Positions 12,818 to 53,235 of a DNA stretch of 55,525 nt are shown here, piece by piece; the stretch's first letter is position 1, and the number at the start of each line of letters is the position of its first letter. The translations under genes and the position numbers were made by a program. The notes under the pieces were generated by a model. The model ran no database searches, had not been told where the DNA came from, and worked only from the letters and a program-made list of their open reading frames with translations. This DNA comes from Phoronis australis (lineage: Eukaryota > Animalia > Phoronida): NCBI GenBank assembly GCA_002633005.1, contig NMRA01000850.1, positions 1-55,525 on the forward strand. Reading direction: 5' to 3'.

Positions 12818-13591
12818 TATTAACACATCCTTTCTTTGTCAAGATAAAAAATATCACAAATTGAAACCAGTCAAGTGTGCGTTCAAAATGAAGGAACTAA
12901 TTGTTGATCGACTGAATGCGTTATCGTTAATGAGGCTTTTGTAACGAGTCTGCCAAGCTAGACAAGAAAATCAATTTTAAGAGTTGTATAACACCCCGAA
13001 GGACGACATGCTGTAGACATACACTCAACTAGACCTATAAGAACGCGATTGCAGAATGGACAAAAAAAATAAAATTGCCGGTTTATAGCGATATGCGCTT
13101 CTTGAAATATACCAGACAAGTTAAATGTAGGAGAAATCGTAATTTTGTCACAGAGTGAATATGTAGCCGTTTTTGTCTCCCCATTATTGTCTACGGACTT
13201 GTCTTCTTTTTATTTTATGTTTTTACAAACCATAATTCAAGTGAGCAAAACTATTATGTCGTGCATATGAGCTCATAGAGGGAATATATGCCTTAGTGCT
13301 GTTAATTTTCTTCCACGAATTATGCGCGTTTGGAAATAAGTTACTTACAAACTCACTCGTCTTGTACTTGACGTCATTTCTTAAGACTATAGACTTAATC
13401 GCTTGGGACACGACAGGAAATTAACTAACTATCAAGCAAATGATGCGCGCGATGTTTTCTTATTAGGCGCGGATACCTTACAGTCTGCGATCGTGCTATT
13501 GAAACTGTAGGTCTACTTATAGTGAAAGGAAATGGAAGTACCTCTGTGACAATTAGTTTTGAAGTTCTGGCAGTCTTTGAGTTATCAAGGG

Positions 13592-14650
13592 ATGGAGAAA
13601 CGTTCTGTCCTACGGTTTGATCCTGTGGTTACAGAAATTTCAGACAGTGAGTCAAAATTGGACGCATGTCCCACGAAGAAAAAAACGAAGTCGATTCTAA
13701 AAAAACGAAAAGGAGTTGAATCGGATGTTGCAAAGATCGCCACTGGACCTGATGCAAACCAAAAGAAGACAAGGTCACTGGAAACGACGGATCATTCGCC
13801 ACTGTTGCCGCCTACAATGCAATGTAGGAACGTAAATTCGTGTGAATCCTATGACATACGTATATCTTTCGACCAGTTTCTGCGTTATGAATTTCTTTCG
13901 CGCACCGGAGATTTCAAACAAATGTGTGATGAAATCGAAGCAGATGAAGTGGAAAACGAACGATTGTCGAAGGAACAAACCCTACCCAAGATTAGAATAA
14001 ACAGTGAGAATCAACGGGCACGTCAAAAACGCCACATAGCCCTCACAAAAGACGGCATGCAAAGGTCAATGCAACGGTTTGAGGGTTCAGCCGCTGCCAC
14101 TGAAGAGCTAGCAAATACGTCAGATAAAAATTCTTCGACGGATGTTTTTCCAAACGTGGACACGAAAAAGAGTCTACCGATTGATAACTCCAGGAAATAC
14201 GGGCGATCAAACATTGCTGATCTAAAATCATCGTCACAAAATTCAGAACACGCGTACACAAAAAACAGAGCAACTGAAGCAAAGTCGCGCAGAAGAAGTA
14301 AAAGAGTTATTGTCCTAGAAGACATCGATGATGGAGATAACTTTAAGATAAAAAATCAGTTGTCAAGGAAACAAACGGTGAAGTTCTTTCCTGCCGTCGG
14401 TGAAGAGTCAGAATATCGTAAGGTTGTATTTAATGACACTGGAACACCCGTTACGGTATTTATGGGTAGTCTGGACCAGAAAAGGAGAAGAAATCCTTAT
14501 GAAGGGATACGAGATTTTGACGGAAACTACCTTCTACCTACGTCTAAAAAGAAACTGATTTTTGGACTTATTTATAATAAACTTACCAAGTCATTTTATC
14601 CGCCACTGTATAGTTCAAATACTAGGAGAAGGAATTTGGGAAAGTCGTGA
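13592..14650 (+). CDS. Intronless orphan protein, 352 aa, Lys/Arg/Ser-rich and probably disordered, with PP1-docking-like motifs
   Basis: 1059-nt open frame from ATG 13592 (ggATGG context), far longer than background ORFs. AATAAA at 14794 and TGACGTCA (CRE) at 13369. It contains KSILKK, RISF, KQTVKF and RKVVF. I recognise no family. Confidence 0.7.
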   Translation: MEKRSVLRFDPVVTEISDSESKLDACPTKKKTKSILKKRKGVESDVAKIATGPDANQKKTRSLETTDHSPLLPPTMQCRNVNSCESYDIRISFDQFLRYEFLSRTGDFKQMCDEIEADEVENERLSKEQTLPKIRINSENQRARQKRHIALTKDGMQRSMQRFEGSAAATEELANTSDKNSSTDVFPNVDTKKSLPIDNSRKYGRSNIADLKSSSQNSEHAYTKNRATEAKSRRRSKRVIVLEDIDDGDNFKIKNQLSRKQTVKFFPAVGEESEYRKVVFNDTGTPVTVFMGSLDQKRRRNPYEGIRDFDGNYLLPTSKKKLIFGLIYNKLTKSFYPPLYSSNTRRRNLGKS

Positions 14651-19244: not shown

Positions 19245-21030
19245 TCTAAACCGTGTTTTTCTGGTTGTGGAGCACCGGTTCATCCTGACCCAACCTGAGG
19301 CTTCCATAACCGAGAGTTTTCGAGTCTGTGAAATCCGACGTCTGTTCTCCAACCTAGTCTGCCATCAGTTCGTTCTGTACGTCATTCTCTGTCGTTCCTG
19401 AAACCAAGGTTGTCTGGTTATGAGTTAAGGCCTCCTCACGGCCACCTCCGGAGGCTTCCATGTCTGAGAGTGTCTGGTCATCAGGCCCGGGGGTTCTTCT
19501 AAAGCAGAGGCTGTCTCCCAGCCACAGCCTGATGCATCCATAAACGAGGTTGTGTCAAAGCATCCGTATCCACTTCCTACTTCTCCTTCCACTGTGGGTA
19601 ATCCACCGAAATCATCGTATTCACACTCGTATGTTGTTTTTTTTCGCGACCTTGCCATCATTCACGTAGCCCTGCCGGTGCTAAACTGCCTTATGCAATG
19701 GCACCGATGACCTTGAAGTGTTTTGACACTTAAAAGTCATCGATAGCATATTCATTCTTCAACCTTTATGTTTCTTACACATACGTACAATCTCCGTCAT
19801 TCAGTGTGACGTCATCCTTTTCGGTGTTAAGAACACTCACGATGCCTACATCAGCGATCCCATCATCGCCAGAGTCTGTACCAGATGCAGTGACGGTGGA
19901 AGTGGCGGCCGCGGCGACCGTGGCATTGGTGGAAGCTAGACAGTGTCACCTGAAACGTCGAAGGCACTCTTATCTTTCCCATAACTCTCTTGCTCTATAA
20001 CTATGCCATCTACAGATTCTTCCAAAGTGGCATGCGACTCTAAGTTCGCAAACATCCTCTTGGCAGGCAGGCCAGCATCTTCCATCAATGGTTCTCTTTC
20101 GAAGTCTATGGATACCGACGCAAAGTCGTTCATTTCGCTACGCATTTGTTGTAGTAAAGATCCAGTTTTCTTGTATGTTCTGCTTATTCTCCACCTAAAC
20201 CAGTACAAAATCAACAGATGAAGATATGTGTGTCAGTGCCTGCAATTACGGGCAAGTCCGGTATGCCATGCGTGGCGAGACCTTGTTGATATTGCTAGCA
20301 GGAAGGGAGTTCACCCGACCCGTTCCCAACTGCTGCAACCGTATTATTTCACATTGGCTAATGAAAGACATATATGCTTACAGAGGCTTTCGCATGGACC
20401 ATTAAAAATGAAATAGACCCTTCACCAAAATGCGGACATTGTATGAATATATTCTGCTTTGCTGACAATATTTCTTCGAATGTAATCAGAGACAGTTCCC
20501 CGAATAATCGTAATTTCTGTACGTTTCTTGAAAGATGATGTATCCACAACACCAATATACGGTGTGAAATCGATTTCAACAACTTGCATACGGCTGGAGA
20601 GCTGTTTCACATCACTCGTCGCTTTGTCCAGCGCTTCAATGAGTGTCTTCCTGTAGCCATCGCCGATGTCTTCAAGACTAACAAAGTGATTGCGAAGATC
20701 TTATTGAAAAGACATTTAGTGAGGTGAATCTTTTGTCTGAAATAGATTTTCACTCAGTTGTGATTACATTCACAGACGGGATGCTGGTAATGTAATACAA
20801 AAGTTTGAAGAGCTGTATTCAAAGAAAAACATTTTCGTATTCATTGTAACAACGAACACAACTGCGTGATTACATTAGTCAGCAATTCAGCTCGAGGAAG
20901 GTTTACGATAATAAAGGCCTTGGCGAATTCGATGTGTGTACTGAGTTTATTTCTCTACCAGTGGAAACACAAGGAAACGGTTGCACCAGTATTAGTGTAA
21001 AAACTGGGATACAGCACACCTGATACACCC
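19245..21030 (-). pseudogene. Probable decayed gene for a secreted acidic Ser/Thr/Gly-rich (proteoglycan-like) protein
   Basis: Protein-like minus-strand blocks: a hydrophobic leader-like segment (VCCIPVFTLILVQPFPCVST, about 21020-20960); DLRNHFVSLEDIGDGYRKTLIEALDK...MSAFW (about 20700-20425); an in-phase GT/AG junction to WRISRTYKK...DVSGDTV (about 20196-19936); then frameshifted or stop-interrupted acidic tracts with three M(E/D)ASGxG-like repeats (about 19540-19290). Confidence 0.4.
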
Positions 21031-24700: not shown

Positions 24701-25950
24701 AACTTATGAATTGATAAGGACAGCTTAGGTATTGGTGTAAATTCCAAATACTAGCGTACAGGCGCAGTTGCCTCATCAGACACTGGGTGGGTAGCCTACC
24801 CGGGCCGGCCGGCGGTTGGGGCACCCCGCGGCGAGAAAGTTCGAGCATATCTCACTATTGTGGCACATGACAGCGTTGGCCGTTCAGTGACTTTCGTAGG
24901 GGGTTCTGAGCGAGTGATAACATCTAGTTTCTTTGTTAACAGCCAAGCACACTATTAATTTGTCTGTTATGACAACAAGCAGGCCTATTACAGACCACCC
25001 TGTCAAATCCAGAGCAAATTCAGTGGTACATTCGGAAACAATAGATTGTCGTAACTTCGGTTGCACCGAGTTGGGCGCCGATTTTGGCGATTCACTAAAC
25101 TAAACATGATCACCATTTGACGACGATTTCAGAAATACTATTGGTTTATGTTCAAGTATGCCATAACTTAACTTTTACTTTTAACAGCGCAGCCCAGTCA
25201 TGGTATACGATATCTTATTGGAGACTAGAGCAATTATCGAACAAAAGAGAGCTGGCCCTCCAACCATGAATGCCACCCGAACTCGTCGGTCAGGCCGGAC
25301 GTGATAAAGGTGTACCCAATGAGATTTATAAATAACTGCTGAGCTATTTATCTCATTGGGTGCACCCACCAGACGGCGCACCATAAAGGTCAAGGTTAAA
25401 CATGTGTTTTATGACCGAAGAGTGTACACAACCAACTGACTAAGTCAGTGCGGTCTTTCTCCGAACAATAACTTCGAGTTGTGTCTAGAAGGTAAGTATA
25501 CTTAAGTAAGTGAAATTCCATCCACACATTCTAATCTTTTTGTTGTTAATTTTCATTATCTCGTCCGCGTCAATGACAATGCCAATGGCCTTGCTCGTTG
25601 GACTTCACCACTTACACACCTTGAAGTTGAACTTGTTGACCTTGTTTTTTGTACTGTCCTTTGACGTACAACGCAGATCTATTGATTAACAACGAAAACT
25701 AATAATCCACCAAGAGGGATACGTTACAAGACGAAGGACCAGTTAGTTTTTAGGTTTGGGAATCGTGGTCCAAGCACCAGTTCAATCTTTTACAGTTAGC
25801 ATTATATTTGACTTTTTTTACTGACATCGGTCCATAGCTGTATAATTTTCAGTTTTCCACCAAGGCTAATTAAAGAGCTGTTTCGGGCAGTTGAGTGACC
25901 AGTACTAGAATATTAGTGTTCATTTTATTTTGTCATTTTCAGAGTTGAAA

Positions 25951-28900
25951 ATGGTGACTACTCGTAGCCATGGAAGACTAGAGGAGAATGGTCATGTGAC
26001 TGATCTGACTGGAGGTTTAGAATCACGCAGTAGTCTCCGTGATGTTGTTGTTCTTGGTGCTTGTAGCTCAGCTGGTATAGTGTTCGGCATTGCACTTGAA
26101 AAAGGCAGAGGTATAGTGCCGGTCATTTGTGTCCTTTATGTCGCGCTAAAACTTACTGCAAAGTCATGATACACTGTGTATTTGTTAAACACAATAGATT
26201 TTAAACTAACTACTTGACTTTGAGGGAGATAGAGGCTCTCTCGTTAGCAGGGACGGAATCTGTCTTACTGAGGAGACATGCGCTCCCTGGTGCTTTCTGT
26301 TTTTGGTGAACTTTGGGCCGTTAGAAATTTGGCCTGTTTTGTGACACTTTGTATTTCTTTAATGAATTTGCACAAGAACAGCTGTTGTGAAGAAGCCTGT
26401 TTAAGTGAGAAATGTGGATCTATTGTTCTTTTGTGTAGAGTTGAGCAATTACTGCATCAGTCATTGGGATTTCATGGCAAGTAAATTTGACATAACGTTG
26501 CTGTCTAGAACTGTCCAGTTCTTGTTCTATTGGGCTTCTAAAATGGAATTTATCATAAAAAGTTGGATTAGGATCACTGTGACCCAAAGAAATACAGTAA
26601 AAATTAGTAAAGATACATGCGTAAGGTTTCGGTTCTCTAGTATCTGTTGATGAAAGTTTTAGTAAGATACCGGAAATTGGCCTGCAAGTCATAATGTTAG
26701 ACAAAAGACCACAGAAACGCTTAAACTCCCGTTTACACAGGAAAGCTTTTATACAGGCTACTGTTGTTGTTGTTGTTGTCATCTTTATATTCATTCAGCT
26801 GTATGAAATACCCAGCATATCATCATTTCTTTTGCAGTATTCGAACCTGCTGTGATTCAAGACCAAATGCTCATGAAAAGATTTGTAATGATGAAAATGT
26901 TCCTTTCTGCTGTATCCTCAGGTCAGTTGCCTGGAGTTTTCCTGTACACTGATTAAGTAAAATGATTAAAAAATGGTTAATCAAATTTGTGAATAAGTAA
27001 ATACTGTTTTTAATAAACACCATAAAATTGTTTATATAAACCTTATATTGTCTAGCCTTCATTTAAACATTGTTTTGTGTGTGAGTCGAGTTTATTAGCT
27101 AGAGAAAAACCAGAAACGTGAGTAACTGACACGTGATAGGGATATTGATATACTTGACCTTCAAGTTCACACTAATGACCTCTTCAGCGGACAGAAATCT
27201 TTCAGATCATAATTTAGATAACACAGATCTGCAGTAGACTCTATGACACCTGGTGACAGAAATTGAGAATTTTTTATGCTAGTACCAGTGGACAGTTGAG
27301 AACTACTCGACCATAAAGTTTGTTCAATGATGCATGGAAATAATACAATTTTGTTGTGATAGACTGGTCCAGGTAGCCAGCACAGCTACTAGGGATGGTT
27401 GAAATTCCTGAATACAACAGAATTCTGAAATTCTGTCCAGTGCATCTCACTAATTCAATGAAAGTAGTTCCACTTACAGCCCAAATGCGGGTATCATGTT
27501 TATTGCTCGTACAGCATGATCGGATAATATAGCCTACACTCGAGTTCTGAATAGCTGTAGAAACTGCAGTAATAGTATACATCGGAAATTTTCAGGATCA
27601 CTAGTATTAGAGACAAGAATAATAAGTACAGACTACAGACCCAACATTTTTGCCTCTTGAAAAAATAAATAGTATAGACGTCCATTATTCCTAAGCAGAA
27701 GTGTTCAAGAAGAGGTAGTGCCGTCTCCTCTATCCGCACCTCATGATGTATGTGAAAGACCAGTGTGATTCTAAGAAGCTATCAGAGATAGCACCTGTTG
27801 AATGCATTTGAGTATTAGTGCTAATGCAAGCTCTATTTCAGGTATGTTTTGTCTATCTGCACTCTCCATGATTCCATCAACTCAGAAGAGGCTAATGCGT
27901 GTCATTGGACCTGTTTATCAGTCAGGACTTAGAAATAAGGGCGTTGCTTCAGCTGTGATTGGCGCGGCTGTTCTCGGATCAGGGATGACATTAGCTGGAG
28001 CTGTAAGTTTTGTTGAGTGGTGACCACCCAAGTGGAGGGACTATCCTGGTATTTTTGTATACCCTCCAAAGTGGCCATTTTTCTTTTACAAATATAGCTT
28101 GGAAATGTGTATTCCTTTAATCTTTGACTTTCTGAAGATAGTGTTATACATTATGTTCGAAAATTTGTACTGTCGGTCTACAAGTTAAAGCAATCTACTT
28201 GGTAGTAAGTGAATTTGCCAATCTGTTTTTGAAATAGCTAAATTTTGAAATAGCTGCGCTGTGTTGAAATTCACTATACTGTCAGATGGCGATTAGGCAA
28301 TCAGCGCCACCTTCAGATCCCATGTTATGTGACCTACTGGTATAAGCAGTGCTTTAACACTTTTCTTACTGTCATAATACCGGACCATTTCCACTGAAAT
28401 ATGGTGGGTTGTACTACTGGCTAACGGAAATAAGGCAAACCTCTTGAAATATCCATATTAGTGAACTGACTGTGGGATTTAGTCCTCTGTTTTTAGATTA
28501 ATGAACCACTACGTAATAATTGAATTTTTGTCCTCTGAACCTGAGTTGGGATCGAGCGGAGGTCGCTTTCTTGCTCTCATTACTCTAGTGAGAGTGTCAA
28601 TATGAAAAGTCCGCAGGTTTAAAACCTGTTGCAGTGCCATCTTTGTTTACCATTGTTTTGGTCCATGTTTTGGAGTGGAATCCAATTTTTAATACAGAGT
28701 TGATATTTATGATTACATTAAGGAAAACCATGGACTTATGGAGATAATTGATTACTTCAACAGGAATATTCACAGCAGGAAACAGGACTTATTTGAGGTG
28801 TGCAATTTCACTTCAAACAAAATTAGCAGTGCATAAACCTGTGAAGAAATGTTAACTTTACCTTTAAAGATGGCCAGTGGTGAAGTTGTCTGCTGCCACT

Positions 28901-31900
28901 GCATTCTCAGTGGGCATTCATTATGTCTACAACCAAAAATTGTGAAACAAGGCTTGAAACATGCCACCTTCTATTTCCCATCTAGTGCCCTGGAATGGTT
29001 CTCGCACAAGTTGGTTCAGGAACACAAAATGCTTTATACACATTCGGTGGTGGTCTGCTGGGTGCTGCCCTCTATGGCCTGGTTGAACCAACGATAACTC
29101 AACTGCTAAAACCAAGAAAACCAATCAGCTGTTACAGGTACGTACAGTATACAATTTGTGAAGTGCAGCTACCAACCAGCCTTTATTTCATGATGGTGTT
29201 TCCAAGGCTGCTGGGTCTCTAACCCCATGATGCGCCATCTTTGAAAATCATTGTTTTGGTTCGTGTTTTGGAGTAGAATCCTTTGTTTTGTTTTATTAAT
29301 ATAGGAAGTTAATTGGTCCTAATTACGCATAATTAAACCAAAGATTGCTTGAACAAGAAGATTCACCTTTTTAACTTGATTTATTCCCAACCAGTTTGAA
29401 GTTTGCGATTTCGGCTTGACCCTGCTGGATGTACTTTTAATAGTTCCCACCATGATCTCAAGCGCGTAAATACAACGTAAAGCGAGTTTTATGTGTTGTT
29501 ATACGGCAAACAAGGTTATCTTAAGTAGTTTTAATCAAGAAATGATGTGAAAATTTTAAGATAAATTATTCGTTATGTCATGGGTGGAAGACATCTCCAG
29601 CAGTCTGTTGAGTAGCTGTAACAGAGTTGAATGAGTTTTGAAGAAATGTTTGTAGAATTCATTCAGCGAGGACTCTGTGTGCATCTACGTATGTCTGAAA
29701 TATTCTGTTCTTCCCCAAAAAAATTACCGATTAGTATTTCGCATGTACCTAAGTTTCACATGTAGATGCAGTGTTCAACTGGTTGTCTTCTGTACATATT
29801 TGGTCTATTTTTAGAATCATTCGGTGGTCATTGTTAAGTTGAATACTCACCAACATTCACCTGTTTGGAACAGAATAGTCGAATTTCACTTACATGCTGT
29901 TTAAAAAATTCCCAGTTCTCGAATTTACTCTTTAGTGTTTACGTAATTAATGCTCTTGTGCTTAATTCTGAATCTCAGTGCAGGTATGCATTTAGGCGCT
30001 TGGGCGTAATTCGCACATATCCAGGATGATACTGGTATTTCCGTAATTGTAACAATTCTTATAATTTCAATTTAACACTATTTCAGTTTGCAGTCCTACC
30101 TACAAACACCGTACAGTATAATCTCACTTCCTGTGGCCTCAGTTTTCGCTATTGTGGTTTTTGGTCTGGAACTGATGGTGCCATGGAAATCTGAAGTAAG
30201 TGCTTTAATCTCACTGGTTTTTTAAGCTGGAACTTGCGTTCAGATTCAGGCGCTCTCATCAATAGCGTTCTTTTCTCGGGCACTGCTATTCTGCTCTGAT
30301 GAATATTTTGTTTCTGACGAATCTTAGTTGTGCTCACAGAGACTTTGCTATGCTCATCTCATGCTACATAATATCAAACACATGCAACTCGTGCTTCCTG
30401 CCAGATAGTGATTAGAACTGGTGTTTGTGAGAAAAGAAATACTAGCCGATTTGCAGTACATGAGAAAACAAGTGTAGCTTGTGATGAAAGAGTTACCAGT
30501 TGAGAAATAGTGTGCAGTGCCTCATGATGTATTTTTAATTAGCTCTCACAGGTTGTCATTGGCAGCAGTTCAAACTTCTTATCGATGCAAGCCTGGTCGC
30601 CAGCCATCGCCGGGATAATCATTGGTGCGCTACAGATTCCCATAGTCCTCCTTGTGGGCGACACCTTGGGCGGTAGCAGCAGCTACTGCACTCTGGTGTC
30701 ACTCCCTCTAGTCACAAGATCTCTGCAGAAGTTGTCTCCTTACCTCACAAACTTCAGGTCCGGTATTGCCAACTGGTGGCAGGTAATTCAAGTAAATTGA
30801 GACATAATAATTAGAGACTTGGTGCATATTGCATGATGCTGGACACTTGCAAGACACTTGCTGCAGGAAAGCTTGCCTTGTGACATGGAAATGGTGTGTT
30901 TACATACATTTTTCCTGTAGCTCAACATTGTATCATCGTCCATCAGTCACTTCAGTGATGGCCATATTGTTGGTATATACTAGGACGATCGTGTGCTGAT
31001 TTGTTCAACATAATTCTTTCACTAGCTTGATCTTGCGTTCTCATGCCAAACTAGCAAGACTCCAAGCCATGCGTAACGCACCAGGGACAATCATGTACTC
31101 GGTTAAAACTGAACCACGACATGTGTAGTGATGTGCGCTGATGTGCTACTGAAACTATTGGAGACTTTATTCCATTTTCTTAAAAGAACCCTAATCTGCC
31201 TGTTGGTTTGCATCAAGGTCTGGGGTGAAATTAGTTCGTTAAGGTTGGAAGGAGGGGAATCGGTCCTGTAAATCGATCCTTTTTTATACGCCCACATATT
31301 TATATGTGGTCGCATATTGCCGTCATCTCTGTCTGTCCGGGCGCCCGTCGTCCGACGTCTGCAGCTGTATCTCCTACACCCCTCACAGGATCTTGATGAG
31401 ATTTGGCAGTTGTGTTCCTATGAAGCTCAAAACTGATGACTACGAATTTCGGTCCTCTCCGACTAGCGGTGTGCCGCCTAGTGGCAATTTTAGTTTTTTA
31501 CGCTTACCTCTGTATTTTCTGAAGTCCTCAACGTATTTTCAAAAATTTTGGAATATGGGCATCTATTGGTGAGGCGAAACTATCCTCTTGTTTTCGGATA
31601 GATTCGACGTAGTTTGCGCCACCTAGTGGCCATTTTTACTGTTTTCGAGTCTGCTTTTTGGCGTCCACCCCTCTATCAATCAAACTGCTCTAAGGATGAT
31701 TGTGAAAATTGGCATGTATATTCTTACCATCAAGAGGATGGTTGACGATGATTTTCCGACGACTTCGGCTACTGTGGCACCTCCTAGTGGCAGTTTTGGT
31801 TTTTGCGCCCATGGCTATATCTCCTAAGTGTATTTATATGATGGTGGCATCGGACAGAGACGACTTTCGCACGGAATCAAATAACCAGTGTGCTCCCTAG

Positions 31901-34900
31901 TGGCAATTTTAGTTTTTTACGTTTACCTTTGTACCTTCAAGGGTCCTCAACATATTTTCATAAAATTTGGAATATAGGCACCTATTGGTGAGATGACGCT
32001 ATCCTTGCATTTCTGGATACATTCTAGGTATTTTGCGCTATCTGGTGGTTATTTTTTTACTGTTTTCGAGTCTGTATTTTGGCGTCCACCCCTCTATCAA
32101 CCAAACCATTCTAAGAATGATTTTGAAAATTAGCGTGTACTGAGTGTAAAGAGGTTGGTTATGCTGACAACTTTGGTTACTGTGGCACCTCCTAGACAAC
32201 TTTTCAGATGGAGTGGATGTGTTGTGCCATCTAGTGGGAATTTTCATGATAGAAATGAACAACTCTAGAAGCACATCGTTTGCGGTGCATTCGTGGGCGT
32301 ATTTCAACGCTCTGCGTTGCTCTTGTTCCTTGATTTGCAGTGAATTTCAATGCATCAGGAAATGATAATTTAATTATATGTTAATTATATATTCATTACT
32401 GTTCAATAATTAGAATACAAACAGGCAAACACTGATCATGTGCAATTTGTTCCAAGAAATGATACACCAATCTGACAAAACTAAGTTCTGCCTTTTCTTT
32501 GTTAAAATCAGTAATATGGTAAATTGTACCCACATTTTTCAAGCCACTCTTTATTTCCTTTGACTGCATTCGTTTTCAGGTATGCTACATAGGTGGTGCC
32601 ATTGTTGGTGGCGGTCTGTCAGCGCAGTTGTCCGGCACGTGGGGTACAGTTCCAGGCGTGTCCCCTGCCTTGGGCATGTTGGGAGGGTTTCTGATGATTA
32701 CAGGTGCAAGGATAGCTGGGGGTTGTACCAGGTATACTTCTTCTGCTGAACACTTCGGTTTTAAAAATGTCAACAGCCAGTATTTCTTCTTAAAAAGTTT
32801 AATTTGAAAGTTGTATTAGCAACGAAACATAAGAGGAGGTGGAAGGTGTGGAGAGACTCTTGCATATGAGTGGCAACCATCTCTTGCAGGTATCTTTTCA
32901 GTGGTATTTTGCCCCCCACCCGATATTGTCTCTGGTGGGCATATTGCCCTCTTGACTGTATCGTCTTCAATGGTTGTTGTAGTTTGTCATGTTGGTAATA
33001 GAGGGCGTGATGACCGTAGGGATCACTTGGTATTGTATTGGGTACCCATTTTTATGCGGCCACATATTTATATGTGGATGCATTATGCTGTCATCTCCAT
33101 CCGTGCGGCGTCCGTCTGTCCGGCATCCGCTGCTCTATCTCCAAAACCCTTTGACATACGTTCATGAAATTTGGCACATATGTTCCATTCATGAATGGGA
33201 CATCATGAGTGAACTTTCGGACGGATCTGACTACCGATGTGCCCCCTAGTGACAATTTTGGTTTTTTACGCTTACCTTTGTATCTTCAAAAGTCCTTAAC
33301 AGATTTTCGTGAAATTTGGTATGTAGGCACCTATTAGTAAGATGACGCTATCGTCCTGTTTTCGGATGGATTTGACATAGTTTGCGCCACCTAGTGGCCA
33401 TTTTACTGTTTTCGAGTCTGTTTTTTGCATCCACCCCTCTATCAACCAAACCGCTCAAAGGATGATTGTGAAAATTGGCATGTATGTGCTTACTATAAAG
33501 AGGACGCTTGACAATGATTTTCCGATGATTTCAACTACTGTGGCGCCTCCTAGTGGCAGTTTTGTTTTTTTGCGCAGGATCTTTACTTAATGTAGCAAGT
33601 GTATTTATATGATGTTGACTACGGATGACGACGACTTTCGGACAGATCTGACTACTGCTGTGCCCCCTAGTGGCAATTTTATTTTTTTACGTTTAATGTG
33701 TATCTTCAAAGGTACTCAACAGATTTTCATGAAATTTTAAATATAGGCATCTATTGCTGTGGTGACGCTATCTTTCTGTTTTTGGATGGAATCGAGGTAT
33801 TTTGCACCACCTAGTGGCCATTTTTGCTGTTTTCAAATCTTGTTTTTGGCTTCCACCCCTGTATCAACCAAATCATTTGAAAATTGGCATACATGTTCTC
33901 AGTGACGAAGACGACCTTTGATGATGGTGACTCACTACTGTGGTGCCTCCTAGTGGTAGTTTTGTTTTGCGCCCATAGTTGTATCTCTTAAACCCACTGC
34001 AGGATCTTTACTAAATTTAGTAAGTGTATTTATATGAAGATAACAACAGACGACGACGACTTTCAGGTGGATCCAACGGACACTCTGTCCACTAGTGGCA
34101 ATTTCATTTTATTCTTTGTTTCTCTGAAGTTCCTTGACAGATTTTTATGAAATATGGCATGTTCCTGTTTTTGGATGGATTGTTTGTTTTTGCGCCATCT
34201 AGTGGCCATTTTTATGATACAAATAAATAACCCTAAAAGCACACCATTTGCAATGCATTTGTGGGCGCATTTCAACGCTCCGCGTTGCTCTTGTCACAGT
34301 TGCTGGCAGATAATTGCTTTTGGATTTTGAACGTTGACAGAACTTTCCTACCCATTATGTGGAAGAGAATTCAAGTTTAGGTAGATGGATGCTTCCCCAG
34401 TTTGCAAATACATTTATTCAGTTATTGTTTTGGGTGCATATCGTCACCTTTTTAGGCCATATTTTAAGTTCCGTCCGTTCTGTGCATAGCCCGCAATGAT
34501 GGTAAAAAAGCTAGTGAAGATCAACTTTATAGCAGTACATGTTTATTATTTGTAATGACATGGACGCATCACAGAATGCAATACAAACCAAATAGACTTT
34601 GTGCGCAATACATCCCCAGCCTCTTGGGTGTACAAGTTTCCTGATAACAATTAAAATGCAATAAGTAGTCTAATTCAAGCGTTGATATTCTTGTTGTCAA
34701 AAATGATGTGTTAGACCTTTAACTTGTCGAGTTCATCACAACTGTGCTAGGAATGATAAGCAATAGCTTCACTCATGTCTTGTTGTACTTTGCCTGTGAA
34801 TTGTAGTGGCTGATTTTGAACTACAAAAATACCATGAGCAGTATGGGTTTAAGCACGTCTTCCTTCTTCTAGTGGACATGGACTCTCTGGGATCGGCGCT

Positions 34901-34990
34901 TTGCAGTTGCTGTCGTTTGCCGCAGTGCCTGCCATGTTTGCTGGTGCGATGGGAATGGCTTTTGCACTGGACAAGTTTGGAGTCATCTAA
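25951..34990 (+). CDS. YeeE/YedE (Sulf_transp) family, thiosulfate transporter TsuA-like membrane protein, 388 aa, 8 coding exons
   Basis: Exons 25951-26110, 26838-26921, 27842-28002, 28986-29137, 30087-30195, 30552-30782, 32580-32731, 34873-34990 (1167 nt; all GT-AG; phases consistent; no internal stops). Motifs: GIVFGIALEKGRVFEP, GMTLAGACPGMVLAQ, LGGSSSY, GARIAGGCTSGHGLSG. A probable upstream UTR exon ends at the GTAAGT donor at 25492. Confidence 0.9.
31281..32327 (+). mobile_element. Helentron-associated non-autonomous element (HINE/DINE-1-like), copy 1
   Basis: Begins in a T-run. The 5' subTIR atacgcccac (31286) has an adjacent palindrome ccacatatttatatgtgg, followed by a GTCC/GTCT microsatellite-like tract and tandem units of about 420 bp. 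The 3' subTIR gtgggcgtat (32293), the hairpin caacgc-tct-gcgttg and the ctcttgtt end follow. Confidence 0.8.
33049..34294 (+). mobile_element. HINE/DINE-1-like element, copy 2
   Basis: Same 5' palindrome (cacatatttatatgtg), CGTC/GTCC tract, about 2.5 units of roughly 420 bp (starting near 33210, 33630, 34055) and the 3' end gtgggcgcatttcaacgctccgcgttgctcttgt. Confidence 0.8.
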
Positions 34991-35838: not shown

Positions 35839-35947
35839 CATTTTGCGCCATCTAGTGGCCATTTTTATGATAGAAATAAAGAGCCCTAGAAGCACACTGT
35901 TTGCGGTGCATTCGTGGGCGCATTTCAACGTTCTGCGTTGCTCTTGT
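35839..35947 (+). mobile_element. 3' fragment of the same HINE family (copy 4)
   Basis: tgcgccatctagtggccatttttatgatagaaat...gtgggcgcatttcaacgttctgcgttgctcttgtt matches the last roughly 110 bp of copies 1 and 2. Confidence 0.75.
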
Positions 35948-37691
35948 TATAATGGTGTTTATTTTGTGGAACTTTACATTTTTGTAAAAAATATAGATGT
36001 TCCAATTTTGATATCACCATTTTTGAAAAAAATTCCTAAGAGCGATATGCAGAACGGTACAAAAACTTGAGCATCTTGAAATTCCATCGGAATCTGACCT
36101 GGTTGGGATGTGAGGTTCTTAAATTTGCCGAATTTTGTAATTGTGTGGGGTTGTTTGAAATAACCAGCTGAAGGTTTAGAAGCAGAGCCCTCACAAGTCA
36201 GAGACTACTGGTCTTTTATTTTCTTGCCACCATCTCACACTGTTCTCTCTCCCAAATGTTCGTATTGTTGTCGTAACCACAACCGTCATCAGGAGTCTCT
36301 TCATAATCCAGACCACGTTCCTAGAGAAACAAAATAGGGTAAAATTGTTTTCACGTGTAACTTTGCCCAAAATTAAGCTAACGTTAGCCAAGTTTGGACA
36401 TTTTCTAAGGTCGTATCCTATGTAAACTCAAAGGCCTCAGCCTGTGCTGATCTGCAATAAAATGGAAACGTCACAAAATAATACTATCTGAATACCCTCC
36501 CTATAGTCATTTAGAAAGAGTCTGAACCAGGCGTGCGTTCCGTAGACGCAGGAACCTCGCGAAAACAAGATCTCTCGGGATGTTGCGATGTAGTACAGCC
36601 AAGCGAAGCACGTCTGCACACTATGTCTTCTTTGGCGAGATTCTTACCAAATAAGGAATCTAGAATCATCTTAAAATAAAATGAGACGCCTGAAACATTT
36701 CTTGATGACCGCACAAAAGCAAACAGAACGTTCATTTTACTTCAGTCATTGTGAGAGACATTGTGCGACTCTCGGGTACGTCGGTGGTTCACGACAATCA
36801 GAAACACTAAGGCCCGTTTTGAGAGGTATTGAGATTTTTTCTCTCATGATAGACCTACCTGCAAAACATCATTTTCATATCCACAGCATCTATTGAATTT
36901 GCTCCTGCATCTTTGCGGAAAACAGCAACAAAATTTGTCGTAAAGTGATACGAGATAAGCGGGATTGACCTTGTTTGATAAACCTGAAAAAACGAAAGCA
37001 AAAAGCTGGGAGAGTTCACAATTTTTCTATTGATATCTCATTGGCGAAATTTTATCCAGCGAAAGTTTTAATGTACTTTCTGTATACATATTTAAAATTT
37101 TCAAAATACTTTCGTCCATATCAAAATTTTGTGTCCGATAAAAATATTATTTTTAAGGAAATTGTCATCGACTTGTATAATATTAGAGAACTACTTCCAT
37201 GATAAATAGCAACTTCAAGGTTATTGTGAAAGTCATATTTTAGTTCGACCACACTGGAAGATAAATTGTGTCTACTTGTAAATACCACGAAGACCCCACA
37301 AGCCATCGTTATAGAAAGAGAAAACGGAAAAAATTCAAAACACTTTTCAGAATCAAATTGAAGTTCAAAACATTCTTTCAGTGTGCAGGACCATAAAAAT
37401 ATCGTTACAAAACCAGCACTTTCACTTCATATAACACTATGTGATACTCATAGATTCATAAACAGCTCCTCAGTAGTATTTCGTACCATACTATAAGAAC
37501 GAATCATGCGCCAGCAAAATTTTAATCTACTAATAATCATGCAAGGAGCATTTTTCTTACCATTCAGGAGCACGTGAACATCCAGGAGCATGTGAACCCT
37601 CACAGTAATGACGAAGGCTTAGTATTGAGCAACGCCTCGCCAATATTCTGCACATTCTGTTTAAATGCGATGAAATATTTGTAGTCACCAG

Positions 37692-44500: not shown

Positions 44501-47500
44501 CAAACGTTCCACATATGTGCTTGGTTAACAACACTGAAGTGAACAGGTCAAACACACAGTTGTGTCATATGGCAGTAATTGTATTGCTTCAGTTCCTAGA
44601 ATCCCACGTAAATAGTCTGCATGTGTCTTTTTATTCTATTTGTTGTGATACTGTGAGTTGTGACCTACAACCACTTCAGATAGGAACTGAGACTGATTCA
44701 TATGTGACAGTGGAGATAAAACCAGGAAAAATAGATAGGGAATTTCAGTCCCAAGACGGACCACCAAAGTACCCTTCCAACACATTAAAGCTCCGTCATT
44801 AAGAGAAGAGAAAATAGCGATGCATGAACTCAGGGTACCTATAAATAAATGCTCTTTCGTTAATGCCTGTTCTAAATCATCCAGGGTATTTGTTTTATTT
44901 TCTGTAGTTAATGGATTGAAGACAACGAAAAGTAAATATAGCTGTAAACAACAGTTTGCCTACCGGTACATGAAACTTAATTCTTTCTCAAGGAGATCTT
45001 ATCACACACAGAGAAGAGGATCAGATGATGGCAAAAAAGTAACGCAAAATGACAGGAAATGGTGGCAAACTCCCAAAGAATTATATCCTCTCTCACAAAG
45101 TCTTGATTAGCTATAAAATCGCACTTTTGTTTGATTCTTATGACAGCAAATCAAAGTATCCCCTGGCCTTAAAAGTGGCAGTCCCAGGTGGTCTTCTGGT
45201 TGTTTCCTACTTTATTTTAGATTCTGTTGCAGGAAACACGCCTAAAATCTGAAAAACTACAATTCTCCGAAAAAAGCTGTACTCTGAAGTTTCTGAAGAG
45301 TTTTCTATAAATGAAAACAATTTGGTTATGGAAAAAAGTTCATTTCACTAATAAAACTTACTGAGTGGACTAAACAGAAAGAAAAGGTCAAAATTCCAAC
45401 TGCTAAACACTTGATCAACTTAAGAATAATGAAAACAAAAAAATATTAATTTACAGGCGACATTTAAAAATCTTGTTTGAGAAAAAGAAGAATACTCCAC
45501 TCTATATGGAGCGTGAACAACTCAGATTATTCTAGCGCAAAAACAAGTTCCTTGGTTATTTGGACGTAAAGTCATATATAGGTCAGATTCTTCTGCATTT
45601 TCATCAAATTTGTGCATTGCTACAATATTGTAATTTTGTTCCTGTTCTACATCAGTTTGTCATATTCTGATCTACACCACTATACTTCTAATTAAATAAG
45701 TGAAATACAATTACCGTTATTCTGCATCCATGTTATTTTGATCATTGTTTGCAGTTACCTCTGGTGAATGTTAAAGTTTTACAATGTATTCAGTTCCTGA
45801 AATTTTTGTTCAAATTGTGTCTCATTAGTTGCTCGCCACTATTTCTTGTATAAAAAGTTATGAAGAAAGGGAGATTGTTTATTTTATACAAGCTTAGATG
45901 TTAGAACTATAAGCGGTATTTGATTTTACTGTCTTTTCTTCAAGTTGGACTTTCCTGAGTACTGATTTGATCTGTAGGTTTTGAAAATTTTCCAATGACG
46001 TTGTGTAACTTTTTGTTTAACATCGGTATAAATAATAATGCGATTCTGAGTATATGTTAAAACTGGTATTTCGTGTTTTCATTTGTTTCACTGGTTCATC
46101 TATATAATCCCCGGTGTTCGCATTTACTACAGTAAGCTTGGTTATAAACTGTCCTTTTGGTTTATATCCCTCAAACTGTTTATTAAACTGATGCAGCTGG
46201 TCAAAAGTAGTTCACGTCCATCCGTTCACGTGTGGTTTTGGAGTATGGGTCTGATCTGTCTGTAAGCAATTAGTCCGGTGCTTATTGTACTTAGATATTG
46301 TTTATGATAAGGGTTTTCAGATTTTGAGACTAGGCGAACAATCCTCATGAATTTGAGAGACACCAAATACGCGCATTTCAACAAATTCAACTATTCCCAC
46401 TAATCGCTGCGCCACCTGCAGGCAAGTCAGTGTCACTCATGTCTTTCTTTCTCACAATGCCAGTAATACTTCAGATGGCGCTACAATTGGTAGAGTTAGT
46501 TGAATAGCTCAAAGCTGGACAGATAGGGCTTAGGATTTGTTGGATTCAACTAAAATCAACTAATTCAACTATTCCTAGTAATCGCTGCGCCACCTGCAGG
46601 GGCAGTTTTATAACGAACATGATGGCAGCAACAGGCTTGCATCAGTGGTGATGGCAAAGTTGGGATTAAATGGATACAATTAAACATTCTAACATGTGTG
46701 GTGTTTAGGCCAATGAGGGGATAGAAATATCGCTGGTCGTGTAATATTAAGGTACAAGAATGAAGTGTGATATCTTACGGGCATAAATACGGGAAGTCTC
46801 GAAGTATCTGCACATGCGCATTTACCTTAGAGCCCCGCAGAACAGAGCAGCTACAAAGAGACCCGGAAAGCCAGGGTAGTTGAGGACTTCCATTACAAAA
46901 TATGGAACCAATTGGTTTGGATTGCTGATGTCTCCATTCGCAATAGGGTCGCACCCTTTTTCCACGTAGTAAGCATATATTGGTAATCCTGCCAAGCACG
47001 TTATCGTGACCAATGTAAACAGAAGGGGTATATTTAACAGCACAACTCTGAAATTAAATGCAGAACCTCTGTTGATCTCCCTTTCATATGTCCTTCATGT
47101 CAGGCAAGTTAAATATGCGCGTTTTAATACTTATCCACACCCTTAAATAACGTTTTCTCTAAAGTATGTGTGCAATCTAAAATATACACATCATTGCAAC
47201 CCTGTCTTTCCCCCAGATAAAGGTACACTTTATGGATAGCGCGCGATGTCGTCATCTCGATGAATTAGTGGAAGTCGTTCACGTGCATTGCTGGTTAAGT
47301 ATTGAGCTGCGTTCCGTACGTGTACAATGAAGGAAAAGTTCACGTCCTTATGACATATCGACAAGCATTGCAGGCCAACCACATGATCTTATTACTATTC
47401 ACTCGTGTCTTGCTTCTCGAAGCAGGCCCCCGGTTTATAAACTAGTTAAGTCTACCGAGGGAATCACTGTTAGCAAAGTGACATGGATAAACAAGGATGT

Positions 47501-50500
47501 GTCATGTCGTAGCTCGAAGTCCTACATTTCTATAAAGAGCCTACTCTATGATGCGGTACCAGAAAATGGTCAACGAAATCACAACTAAAACATTCCAAAA
47601 AGGATAAAACTTACATTTGTGCTTCCCTTCGTGTCTGTAAGGCACTGTATCTTTGTACAGATGGCTGATTTACACCGTAAACTCCCGTCCATAGAAATGC
47701 TTGAGCGATGACCAGACCCCACGTTGTATGGCGGACAGTTGGGTCGAAGTTGAAACTAGATCAAAGGAAAAATTTTGAATAATACAATGTCATTTATTCT
47801 ACCCTTAAGTACCATGGAGTTTGTAGTGCCCAGTTAGTAAATAAATAACAAACTGTGTTAACATCATCGGTGCTGGATTATCTATTAAGCCAACTAGAAG
47901 GTTAATAGCGAAGCTTGGGTCGCCAATGCAAGGCTTCGCGAGATATTTCCAAGATTACACGGGAAGCAAGTGATCACAATAGCTTTACTCGCAAGTGTCT
48001 TGGATCTAAGGAACGCAGTCCAGGCGTCTCCACAAACAAAATTTATACCGTGCTGCGTGAAAAATTTGCCAGCAGCAGAGGGGGAGGGTGTCACTCAAAA
48101 TTAAAATAGTGAGATGTGGCAACCGGAGAAAGGCAACTGAAATCAAAACAAGGCCAACAGACTTTACCAGTTTAGAAACCCGACACTTTTTTCTGCTTTG
48201 ATCATTGTAACCATCCACAACTTTTGTTTTTGTTTTGGGTTACAAGTCACTAACTTAACGAAAACGACACTCAAAATTGATCGGACAATTCCTTGCCTAG
48301 ATTAGCAAAATGACCACCATTGCAACGATTGGTCGGCCCCGGTAGAATGCTGAATTACGTGTATGGGGGAAGTTCATAGTTTCCGTTTTATAAAAGAAGG
48401 ATTGTCAGCGAATGTGCCAATGTCTTGCTTTACAGGAAACAGCATGGGTTTCGTTTCTGTTTGAAGACTTATTGTTACGAATTAAAAGACAACCAAAGAA
48501 TACACTGTGTCGCCTGCATGTTTCACAATCTTAGAACTAGGACAAGAAGACACAGCGTAAGGCGCGTAACAGTGAGGTTGAATGCACAAGAGCGTGACGT
48601 GTGTACACCAACTTGAATGAACAGTATGGTGAGCAAGCGGTGTTCCTTACTTGAAAAATTCAATTCTTCCTCCGTTGACGTTTATCTCCCAAACTCTTCC
48701 AATTCCTCCAACTTTAATACATCCCTGTGAAAAATTTTTATGAAGAATTAAAGAAATGTCATTAAAGATATACCATTAACAAGTCGTAGTCTCTTCATTA
48801 TGTAAAATTCAACGCATTTAGGATCCATTAAAGATACCGCACAACGGTTTTTTAGGATCATTCAGTGCAGTGTTTGCTCATTTCATTGTGAAACCAGCTC
48901 ATCAAAGTATAGGGCGAATTTTGATAGTAATTTTGGGAAAAAAGATTTTGAAAATTCAGACCAAAAAGTTTCCATTGTCCGTTAAGGTGTGCTAGGGGGT
49001 GATTTGAAAACGAAATCTGTAATTTGTTAAGAAAATGCCCAATTTCAAACGACCTCTATACGATACTCTTAGTAAAGGATGAAAAGCTTGGTAACGTGGC
49101 TCTTTATTTTTAGGCGAACTGCAACGCACACCTCCCAGTAGCTATCATGTCTGAACTGATAAACCGTTGACAAAATATAGTAGAATTAATGTTCAGCATG
49201 CACATGTCTCGTGTTTAGCAAAGACCGTGCGTCGTCGAAGTTCCGTATATATGTTGTTATTTCGGTGAAATGGCTCCTGTTTTGAAATTTGTTACCTGAA
49301 TTAAAACTGCAATAATCCCTCCAAACATGATGACGGCTTGAAACACGTCAGTCCATATAACCGCTTTCATGCCACCCTGAAACGCAATGCAACGACTGAC
49401 AAGTCCACGTTTCTGAATTTACACGAATAGCTTCATCAAAGCGTTTCACTTTATTGTCTGTATGTACTGCGTTCTAATTTAGCCAATGGATAGCGGAAAA
49501 CATGGTTCCAAACGTTTTCACTCTTTTGATTATGAAGTAACTTAAAATCAATTATAGCGCTTTATAAGTGCTATTTCCAATTGCAGTTTACGCGTCTGGT
49601 CATTTTAAGAACACATTTCGTCAAAAAGTCCATCTCTGAACTCTATTTTCCGAAACGTTATATAGCCGATAGATTAAAACCACGTGTTTACTGCTTTCAC
49701 AGAACAACGATAAAAGTCTTTTTCTTTTAAGCCGCATTCAAACAAATAAATCAAAATTATAAACTTGAAACCTCAGAACTATTTCCGCGGTGAATCTAGC
49801 TTAAAAATGACCAAAGGCCTCCAGTCAGTCCACAGTATAACAGTGTCAAGTTAGGAACGCCGATGACAAGCCACATCAAAATGTTAAACGATCATCAGTC
49901 GTGATCACTGCTTGACTTCTTAGGCCTACTTACCAATGTCGTGTAGAAAGTGACAACGCTGCCGACAATTATGATGGATGCCCAAGCCGGAAATCCAGTC
50001 ACTACAAATTTTCAAATAAAACAACACATCGTTAAAAATTTAAAAAGATCTTCCTGCTACTTTTAATTTTTCGAAAAAACCAACAAAACACTCACTTAAT
50101 GCTGGTTGGTTAATAAGGTTAAATATTCTGATTTGTCTTTTGCAGAGGCTGGTCATGTGCAATCTCAACAAGCATGTGATTGTGTTTGTGTTTGTGTCTG
50201 GATCGGAATACTTCTTCAATGCATTCGTCACTAATACAGCACGCTCAACGGATTACCGTACAATGGTAGATGTCACAGAAAAAAACAAGGAGTTTGTTTG
50301 AGAATGAGTGCATGGAACTCGTTCACAGTGAGATGTTCAAGTGTCCTGCAATCCGGAAGTCCTGCTCACTCTGGTACCCGTGGTAGACTTAAGTCTAGAT
50401 TCTGCCACGGGTACCAGCGAACGATTAGTCATAACCAATGTGAGATAAATAAACATATACGTAGATCACTGATCATAACTCTCGTGTGTGCTTTATCGGC

Positions 50501-52247: not shown

Positions 52248-53235
52248 TCTGATGATCTTTCTGTTCAAAACTGTCCGGTCAGTGGACCAGTGAACGTCTA
52301 TTCAGACACGACCTACCAGCCTTTGTTATAGGTTACCAAAAAAGACGTTATAGAAATCAACAGCTGCTAACGAACTATGAACTTTTCTATATAGGTTAAA
52401 TAAGTTCATAAATAGAACAAGCTAGTAACCGAACCCATGACTATTGTGACAATACGCCAAAGTCGACAAATTATTTAATTTTGTGTTCAATGCGGTGTGA
52501 TAGTGCTACGGAGCGCGTCACTAAGCAAACCCCGGTGTAAATATTGATACCGTGAAAAGTAACCAAATTATCCGTTTTAGGACTGAATCTGTCTCCGTTG
52601 GGAAAACAGCAGTAGGCTAGTGTAGTCAGACGTTATTTAAACTGAATGTCTAGATTTTACTACACAAGTTAAATAATGCCATAGTCCCCTACCTATCGAA
52701 TTGCCATCCCCAACACAGCCAATGACCAAACATGAACTTGTACACTATTAATTTATATAAGATGGTGAAGTTGGCAAAATTAACAGTGCCGCTTTGATAA
52801 TTAATTTTCCCGTGATAATGGTGGCCAAAACGTTTTATTAAGTGGCTCAAAGTTTCATGCTTTAGCAAGGACTTCTGCGTATAACATTCTTTCTCAAAAT
52901 ATTTTCCTCAACACTTTTACTTTTTGCCGGCATCCAGCCAAGGCCACAGGTCGATGCGTATTAAGAATGACCAGTGTAACTGTTGACTAACTTTGTCGAA
53001 ATGTCGCTGGTTATCTGGGATAGCACATCAAGAGTCTCGCTTCATGAACAAACATGACAAACTGAAAATGAAGCAATGGAATTTTAATTAAAATCTTGAT
53101 TTGATAACTACAACACTAAATCAAAACTCAGTCCCGCAGACAGCTGGAAATTTAAGGCTAGTCTTGGGGAAGTAAGCTCTAATAATAGAATCAAAGGTAA
53201 TGGGAAGACTAATCACTAATCTCATTGGCCGCAAC

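What the first reader, a model, noticed from the sequence alone, without database searches (positions are those of the whole stretch)
25951..34990. Fully intronised animal gene for a bacterial-type YeeE/YedE (TsuA-like) sulfur-compound transporter
Seen: eight phase-consistent exons encode an intact 388-aa Gly-rich polytopic membrane protein with Cys motifs GACPG and GGCTSGH. It sits among ordinary animal genes, so it is not bacterial contamination. Established: YeeE/YedE proteins (E. coli TsuA/YeeE thiosulfate importer, SoxT, PmpA/PmpB) use conserved cysteines to move sulfur compounds in prokaryotes. Mammals lack the family, and I know of no functional study of an animal member. Inference: this animal has an uncharacterised membrane route for thiosulfate, sulfane sulfur or a selenium analogue, for example linked to sulfide detoxification (whose end product is thiosulfate) or exchange with symbionts. 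This is the strongest candidate for an undescribed system in the window.
Basis: partly seen in the sequence, partly recalled or inferred. Interest (0 to 1): 0.8.

Follow-up and report, generated by a model that had tools for sequence, protein, structure and literature searches.

The report
Flipped two-cysteine sulfur carrier in animals
This spliced, transcribed invertebrate gene belongs to an old eukaryote-wide branch of the bacterial YeeE sulfur-transporter family; it keeps two of the three pathway cysteines, is predicted to sit upside-down in the membrane compared with the bacterial thiosulfate importer, and likely carries reactive sulfur rather than importing thiosulfate, a job for which no study of any eukaryotic member turned up.

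Summary
The gene is real. RNA reads from three runs confirm all seven coding introns. They correct one acceptor (391 aa, not 388) and add a non-coding first exon. Its closest homologs are PF04143 proteins with the YeeE fold (Z 33). It is neither rare nor a recent bacterial import: the fused form occurs in many invertebrates, sponges, choanoflagellates, fungi, amoebozoans and algae, and RefSeq already labels many members 'TsuA-like'. This scan met it before in Naegleria and an alga. It is not TsuA proper. It has the equivalents of C91 and C293 but not C22, and scores far below the TsuA cut-offs. Its nearest bacterial relatives are split two-gene pairs, mostly alphaproteobacterial. New here: the loop charge bias of 211 of 222 eukaryote-type members is opposite to that of TsuA and of those pairs, and matches YedE1E2/PmpAB, a tested two-cysteine importer of zero-valent sulfur. 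Best reading: a sulfane-sulfur carrier handing sulfur to cytosolic glutathione (about 0.4). Rival: outward thiosulfate route (about 0.25). Transport is untested, and ten literature searches found no functional study of a eukaryotic member.

The parts
25416..25491 (+). non-coding first exon (5' end approximate)
   Evidence: joint 25491/25943 in 36, 34, 26 reads; 8 molecules end at 25416 in one run; no ATG and an in-frame stop in the leader
25943..26110 (+). coding exon 1 (ATG at 25951): hydrophilic N-tail, helix H1, start of loop LA
26838..26921 (+). coding exon 2: LA/H2 (F55 where StYeeE has C22), start of H3
27842..28002 (+). coding exon 3: basic H3-H4 loop and H4
   Evidence: (weak PF04143 hit on the exon alone)
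28986..29137 (+). coding exon 4: C136 of loop LB (equivalent of StYeeE C91), H5, H6
30087..30195 (+). coding exon 5: linker helix H7
30543..30782 (+). coding exon 6 (acceptor corrected from 30552): H8, loop LC, H9, basic H9-H10 loop
   Evidence: joint 30195/30543 in 7, 17, 16 reads and one contig
32580..32731 (+). coding exon 7: H10, H11, R346 and C351 of loop LD (equivalent of StYeeE C293)
34873..34990 (+). coding exon 8: H12, H13, stop codon
   Evidence: joint in 10, 12, 14 reads

Best explanation
[quoted passage not shown] Shown: gene structure, expression, family and fold of the closest homolog, two conserved cysteines with C22 absent, eukaryote-wide spread, and opposite loop-charge bias. 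Inferred: nine transmembrane helices with four re-entrant loops; mid-membrane C136 would take up sulfur from outside or from an organelle lumen and pass it to cytosol-facing C351, which would release it to glutathione or a rhodanese-type sulfurtransferase. The resulting persulfide would go to persulfide dioxygenase or serve as antioxidant. This is the mechanism reported for bacterial YedE1E2. The membrane (plasma or endomembrane) is not determined.
For: Fold: the model of the closest full-length homolog (54% identical) has pLDDT 93.5 and matches YeeE at Z 33.1, rmsd 2.5 A over 306 residues; the next fold scores Z 5.8. Cysteines: C136 in 216 of 222 and C351 in 220 of 222 eukaryote-type proteins; Cys in about 1% at the C22 column. 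YedE1E2 has the same two cysteines, both essential, and imports zero-valent sulfur, whereas full-length YedE3/TsuA did not (PMC10812762, sections 3.7-3.8). Orientation: K+R counts on the side that is periplasmic in StYeeE versus the cytoplasmic side are 2 vs 23 in E. coli TsuA (control, fits the crystal's N-out/C-in) and 14 vs 6 in this protein. The bias is reversed relative to TsuA in 38 of 38 tree eukaryotes and 7 of 7 short PmpAB pairs, and in 211 of 222 after length normalisation. The paper's TMHMM prediction also puts the C293-type cysteine of YedE1 on the cytoplasmic side. One eukaryote-clade homolog carries a DUF442 sulfurtransferase domain with an intact CRxGxR motif on its N-terminus, the predicted cytosolic side. 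In 21 of 78 bacterial pair loci an immediate neighbour is an ArsR regulator, YgaP-like, FCSD/SQR-like, dioxygenase/rhodanese or TauE gene.
Against: No transport or modification data exist for any eukaryotic member. The nearest bacterial relatives (34-41% identity) are not the tested YedE1E2 (19-25%) but untested longer pairs, and these keep the TsuA-type charge bias in 77 of 78 cases. So two cysteines and flipped orientation may have arisen separately from PmpAB. Orientation rests on the positive-inside rule alone; glycosylation sequons were inconclusive. The DUF442 fusion is a single metagenomic protein, and 0 of 30 other long homologs had an extra domain. The neighbour count has no background control, uses broad families and includes related genomes; most pair loci show no sulfur neighbour. 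StYeeE C22A still complements growth on thiosulfate, so loss of C22 does not exclude thiosulfate.
Confidence: 0.4

Rival explanations
1. It is a thiosulfate conduit like TsuA, but flipped, so that the entry vestibule (C351, R346) faces the cytosol and thiosulfate made by mitochondrial sulfide oxidation leaves the cell or enters an organelle or symbiont compartment.
For: Same fold and nine-helix single-chain layout as YeeE. The two cysteines indispensable in StYeeE are kept and C22 is dispensable there. In StYeeE thiosulfate binds first at C293, the side predicted cytosolic here. Animal mitochondria oxidise sulfide to thiosulfate (PMC12170894 passage), and host-made thiosulfate is proposed to feed symbionts in Bathymodiolus (PMC5270565 passages).
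Against: The vestibule arginine of TsuA (R215/R233) has no clear counterpart in loop LC, where nearby position 262 is mostly Asp. The only tested two-cysteine relative moved zero-valent sulfur inward and not outward. The family is also in fungi, slime moulds, algae and freshwater or land snails, so it is not tied to sulfidic habitats or symbiosis.
Confidence: 0.25
2. It is an inward thiosulfate importer in the TsuA orientation, as the database label implies.
For: RefSeq names many homologs 'thiosulfate transporter TsuA-like'. The nearest bacterial pairs have the TsuA-type charge bias.
Against: Homologs score 19-44 bits against TsuA cut-offs of 400 and 645. There is no C22, the charge bias is opposite, and long hydrophilic N-tails without a signal-like stretch (median 52 residues) fit a cytosolic N-terminus. 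Animals have no cysteine synthesis from thiosulfate as a rule (recalled).
Confidence: 0.1
3. It handles a selenium compound or another small thiol-reactive solute, or relays a sulfur signal (as SoxT1B does) rather than bulk sulfur.
For: Other family members are tied to selenium transport and signalling (PMC11582611 passages). Weak hits to selenium YedE models exist.
Against: The selenium-model scores are 15-32 bits against cut-offs of 200-350. No selenium gene appeared among the named immediate neighbours of 78 bacterial pairs.
Confidence: 0.2
4. It is a recent horizontal acquisition from bacteria by this animal's lineage, or a contaminant.
For: Bacterial pairs are 34-41% identical, close for such distant taxa.
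Against: Eight spliced introns. The protein nests among spiralian orthologs, and a clade of this protein plus the bacterial pairs is rejected (AU p 2.8e-14). A second paralog clade shared by protostomes and deuterostomes has 100/99 support.
Confidence: 0.01

Closest known systems
YedE1/YedE2 (= PmpA/PmpB; C. pinatubonensis, S. meliloti, Serratia), zero-valent sulfur importer
   Same: Two pathway cysteines at the C91 and C293 positions, similar Cys motifs, and the same loop-charge bias (7 of 7 pairs).
   Different: Two 130-150 aa chains without H7 versus one 391-aa chain with H7; only 19-25% identity; not the nearest branch in the best tree, though a shared clade is not rejected (p 0.30).
TsuA/YeeE thiosulfate importer (E. 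coli; S. thermophila, PDB 6LEO, 8J4C)
   Same: PF04143, same fold and helix order, C91 and C293 equivalents.
   Different: No C22, no clear R215 counterpart, about 21% identity, far below equivalog cut-offs, opposite predicted orientation, no adjacent YeeD/TusA gene seen.
Uncharacterised 'long' split pairs of Alphaproteobacteria (about 172 + 205 aa; e.g. Xanthobacter, Elioraea, Tepidicaulis)
   Same: Nearest prokaryotic relatives (34-41% identity), same motifs, two cysteines in 78 of 78, no C22; clade with eukaryotes at 91/97.
   Different: Two genes, in the order C-half then N-half in 78 of 78 complete pairs (the reverse of the eukaryotic domain order), and TsuA-type charge bias in 77 of 78.
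Eukaryotic 'thiosulfate transporter TsuA-like' / 'UPF0394 YeeE-like' database entries (Lingula, Ptychodera, Branchiostoma, Dictyostelium DDB_G0283991, Aspergillus)
   Same: Same subfamily; the best match is 54% identical over the full length.
   Different: Nothing distinguishes this gene from them; all carry automatic names only.
SoxT1A/SoxT1B of Hyphomicrobium
   Same: Same family, sulfur import or signalling.
   Different: Three essential cysteines. Full-length YeeE-like proteins from the fetched loci (not shown to be SoxT orthologs) keep C22 and the TsuA bias.

Membership tests
YeeE/YedE family (PF04143) | Pfam Sulf_transp above the gathering score (27 bits) | tested here: met
   Ten homologs score 114-167 bits. 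The spliced protein was not scanned whole; three single exons give weak collinear hits (15-16 bits), and it scores 512 bits on the homolog profile.
YeeE/YedE family (PF04143) | YeeE fold: nine transmembrane helices with four re-entrant loops | tested here: met
   Model of the 54%-identical homolog P0026: Z 33.1, rmsd 2.5 A, 306 aligned.
TsuA/YeeE thiosulfate importer | Cysteines equivalent to C91 and C293 | tested here: met
   C136 and C351.
TsuA/YeeE thiosulfate importer | Third cysteine equivalent to C22 in loop LA | tested here: not met
   F55 here; Cys in about 1% of 222 homologs and 0 of 78 pairs, against 4 of 4 full-length bacterial proteins.
TsuA/YeeE thiosulfate importer | NCBIfam equivalog score (NF041049 cut-off 645; NF052577 cut-off 400) | tested here: not met
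   Homologs score 19-44 bits.
TsuA/YeeE thiosulfate importer | N-out/C-in orientation | tested here: not met
   By charge bias only (a prediction): 14 vs 6 here, 2 vs 23 in E. coli TsuA.
TsuA/YeeE thiosulfate importer | YeeD/TusA partner | tested here: inconclusive
   None seen next to the gene or fused in 40 scanned homologs; no whole genome was held to search.
TsuA/YeeE thiosulfate importer | Thiosulfate transport | not testable with these tools
   Needs complementation or liposome assay.
YedE1E2 / PmpAB | Two separate half-size chains lacking H7 | tested here: not met
   Single 391-aa chain with H7.
YedE1E2 / PmpAB | One conserved cysteine per half, C293-type cysteine on the cytoplasmic side | tested here: met
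   Cysteines by alignment; side by charge-bias prediction.
YedE1E2 / PmpAB | Descent from the PmpAB clade | tested here: inconclusive
   The best tree separates them; the AU test does not reject a joint clade (p 0.30).
YedE1E2 / PmpAB | Zero-valent sulfur uptake with glutathione persulfide formation | not testable with these tools
   Needs assay.
Selenium YedE/FdhT | NF033796 / TIGR04112 cut-offs (350, 200); domain order of E. coli YedE | tested here: not met
   Scores 15-32 bits with swapped halves.

The most novel reading that the evidence does not exclude
An early eukaryote took a split two-gene sulfur transporter from an alphaproteobacterium (possibly the mitochondrial ancestor), fused the halves in reverse gene order and turned the protein over in the membrane. 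This gave eukaryotes a dedicated cysteine-relay route for sulfane sulfur or thiosulfate. It survives in invertebrates, fungi and protists, and would be the unidentified membrane step of sulfide detoxification and of sulfur hand-over to symbionts in marine animals.
Probability: 0.25. Interest if true: 0.75.

Novelty: new variant of a known kind. Interest (0 to 1): 0.45.

Why it matters
No membrane carrier of this family has been studied in eukaryotes in the papers searched, although invertebrates oxidise sulfide, make thiosulfate and persulfides, and some feed sulfur-oxidising symbionts. The subfamily has members in tractable organisms (Dictyostelium, Aspergillus), so the question can be tested directly. 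The 'TsuA-like thiosulfate transporter' label on many invertebrate genes may be wrong in substrate or direction. A whole-protein flip between close bacterial and eukaryotic relatives would also be a clean case for membrane-protein evolution. The gene itself is an ordinary member of that subfamily.

Tried and rejected
Whole genome: none held, so paralogs and partner genes in this animal could not be searched; only one copy lies in the window. Recent horizontal transfer: rejected. A bacterial fused form of this subfamily: none among the 80 best of 605 loci, but the scan covered 16 of 64 parts. All 7 of 20 looked-up proteins that carried an organism name were eukaryotic, and 13 had no taxon. A plasmid search with a eukaryotic member found nothing. 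Deep relationships: eukaryote monophyly has only 50/67 support, and AU tests reject neither eukaryotes + short PmpAB (p 0.30) nor eukaryotes + full-length YeeE (p 0.34), so donor and direction are open. Mitochondrial presequence: only 3 of 68 mostly animal N-tails look basic and acid-free. Lysosomal sorting motifs: dileucine in 4 of 68 (not above shuffles) and 8 of 98 others; tyrosine motif in 16 of 68 vs 8.7 shuffled; kinship is uncontrolled and this protein has neither, so this was not used. Glycosylation sequons: inconclusive. A conserved bacterial operon: not found; no identifiable neighbouring gene family recurred in more than 9 of 80 loci. C271 in loop LC as a replacement third cysteine: only 26% conserved. 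Earlier notes near this place or by sequence: none.

Full report
Observation. Laying four RNA runs on the locus confirmed splicing. Reads per joint in three raw runs of one study were 15/8/27, 26/22/25, 40/19/26, 13/15/22, 7/17/16, 15/11/21 and 10/12/14, all on the strand expected for a + strand RNA. A contig from a second study shows the first five coding joints. The runs share a species label and need not be the same individual. Two corrections: exon 6 starts at 30543, so the protein has 391 residues, and there is a non-coding first exon ending at 25491 whose leader has no ATG and an in-frame stop. GC3 of the CDS (0.44) is like that of neighbouring exons (0.48, 0.52). The neighbours are an MFS gene most like the proton-coupled folate transporter and an SLC5 gene.

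Family. Single exons gave weak but collinear PF04143 hits. Ten homologs score 114-167 bits against a cut-off of 27. The best full-length match is a Lingula protein, 54% identical. It was folded in place of the spliced protein, which the fold tool does not take: pLDDT 93.5, thirteen YeeE-type helices plus short extras. It matches only YeeE (Foldseek E 1e-8; VIA-align Z 33.1, rmsd 2.5 A, 306 residues; next Z 5.8).

Distribution. Named hits include echinoderms, hemichordates, amphioxus, molluscs, annelids, brachiopods, bryozoans, rotifers, three sponges, a choanoflagellate, chytrids, ascomycetes, Dictyostelium and other amoebozoans, a euglenid, Anaeramoeba, stramenopiles, a cercozoan and cryptists. 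The ESM Atlas cluster has 312 members, all eukaryotic. Many carry the automatic name 'thiosulfate transporter TsuA-like'. No vertebrate, arthropod, nematode, cnidarian or land-plant name appeared, but only 120 of 267 and 120 of 766 hits were listed and many are unnamed, so loss is not shown. Several animals have two or more paralogs, and one paralog clade spans protostomes and deuterostomes (100/99). Two earlier notes of this scan, on Naegleria and an alga, also called it a vertically inherited fused form.

Nearest bacteria. A scan of bacterial genomes (16 of 64 parts; best 80 of 605 kept) returned only split forms: 78 complete pairs, all with the C-half gene before the N-half gene, the reverse of the eukaryotic domain order. 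72 of 80 loci are alphaproteobacterial. These pairs are 34-41% identical to this protein, against 19-25% for seven short PmpAB/YedE1E2 pairs (including the S. meliloti 1021 pSymA pair, which I take to be the tested one) and 18-21% for TsuA and other full-length bacterial proteins. In a 66-row tree (one long-branch row dropped, LG+G4) eukaryotes and long pairs group at 91/97; eukaryote monophyly is only 50/67. A clade of this protein with the pairs is rejected (p 2.8e-14), but eukaryotes + short pairs (p 0.30) and eukaryotes + full-length YeeE (p 0.34) are not. Recent transfer is excluded; the ancient donor, and a mitochondrial origin, stay open. By my hand count, 21 of 78 pair loci have an immediate neighbour of a sulfur-linked type: ArsR 5, YgaP-like 7, FCSD 2, SQR-like oxidoreductase 4, dioxygenase/rhodanese 2, TauE 1. 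There is no background control.

Cysteines. StYeeE lines up C293, C91 and C22 from outside to inside. C91 and C293 are indispensable; C22A still complements, although all three are needed in E. coli TsuA (PMC7449682, passages and section on architecture). This protein has C136 (=C91) and C351 (=C293), kept in 216 and 220 of 222 homologs, and F55 at C22. PmpA/PmpB have the same two cysteines (PMC11582611, passages). YedE1E2 needs both, imports zero-valent sulfur and forms glutathione persulfide, while full-length YedE3/TsuA did not (PMC10812762, passages and sections 3.7, 3.8).

Orientation. I assigned loops to the two membrane sides from the StYeeE topology (N out, C in) and counted Lys+Arg. 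E. coli TsuA gave 2 on the outer side and 23 on the inner side, as the crystal structure requires, and 6 of 6 other full-length bacterial proteins agreed. This protein gave 14 and 6. 38 of 38 eukaryotes in the tree and 7 of 7 short pairs were reversed, while 14 of 14 long pairs followed TsuA. Per residue, 211 of 222 eukaryote-type proteins and 1 of 78 long pairs were reversed; these rows are related, so they are not independent counts. Supporting hints: long hydrophilic N-tails (median 52 residues); cysteines in the H7-H8 loop that come in pairs (24 with two, 9 with one), as in an oxidising compartment; and one homolog, clustering with a cryptophyte, that has a DUF442 domain with a CRxGxR motif fused to its N-terminus. 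DUF442 is a rhodanese-like sulfurtransferase family (PMC11094781, passages). That fusion is a single case (0 of 30 other long homologs). The flip is a prediction from the positive-inside rule.

Mechanism. With C351 facing the cytosol and C136 in mid-membrane, the protein has the arrangement described for YedE1E2. I put sulfane-sulfur relay to cytosolic glutathione or a sulfurtransferase first (0.4). The alternative keeps TsuA's substrate and internal direction, which after the flip means thiosulfate export (0.25). That would fit mitochondrial sulfide oxidation (PMC12170894, passage) and host-made thiosulfate in symbiotic mussels (PMC5270565, passages). The presence of the family in fungi, slime moulds and land snails argues for a housekeeping role rather than a symbiosis adaptation.

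Literature. The abstract of PMC11073785 states that YeeE-like proteins occur in some eukaryotes (abstract and passages). Ten full-text searches listed no functional or evolutionary study of a eukaryotic member. I judged most listings by title and abstract start; a review of S. pombe sulfur metabolism cites only the E. coli protein (PMC8310684, passages). The library lacks most subscription papers. I read no supplements; the supplementary alignments of PMC7449682 and PMC11582611 may include eukaryotic sequences.

Verdict. The gene is an ordinary member of a known, automatically annotated but unstudied eukaryotic subfamily. What adds interest is the two-cysteine core, the split alphaproteobacterial sister group and the predicted flip, which together make substrate and direction directly testable. 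Interest 0.45; new variant of a known kind.

Noticed in passing
window 31240-32350 and 33040-34300 (introns 6 and 7), also 35840-35950: Two related copies, about 1770 bases apart, of a dispersed repeat with internal ~420-base periodicity. It draws up to ~1500x depth of 90-95% similar stranded RNA reads, so the repeat family is highly transcribed elsewhere in the genome.
   Followed up: partly
window 25000-25280: Another transcribed repeat just upstream of the first exon, with reads on both strands and loose ends.
   Followed up: no
window 4585-8936 (+) and 46822-52301 (-): SLC46/PCFT-like MFS gene and SLC5 (SMVT/SMCT-like) gene flank the locus; a 366-codon open frame at 13550-14650 and frames at 19936-20700 (-) have no Pfam match.
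   Followed up: partly
L001-L080 (bacterial loci): An apparently uncharacterised alphaproteobacterial split YeeE pair (about 172 + 205 aa, includes H7), distinct from short PmpAB and with TsuA-type charge bias; often followed by a small YgaP-like (DUF2892) gene.
   Followed up: partly
L083/L093 (Aminicenantes pair): An anaerobe-type split pair shows the reversed charge bias (17 vs 7), and E. coli YedE has its halves in swapped order, so orientation and domain order seem to have changed several times in this family.
   Followed up: no
protein P0095 (719 aa, metagenomic): DUF442 sulfurtransferase domain fused N-terminally to a cryptophyte-like member; single sequence.
   Followed up: partly
proteins P0123, P0052, P0121: A chytrid protein with two tandem copies of the transporter, a starfish model fused to an amidase, and a 911-aa protein with many repeats of loop LC; some may be gene-model errors.
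   Followed up: no
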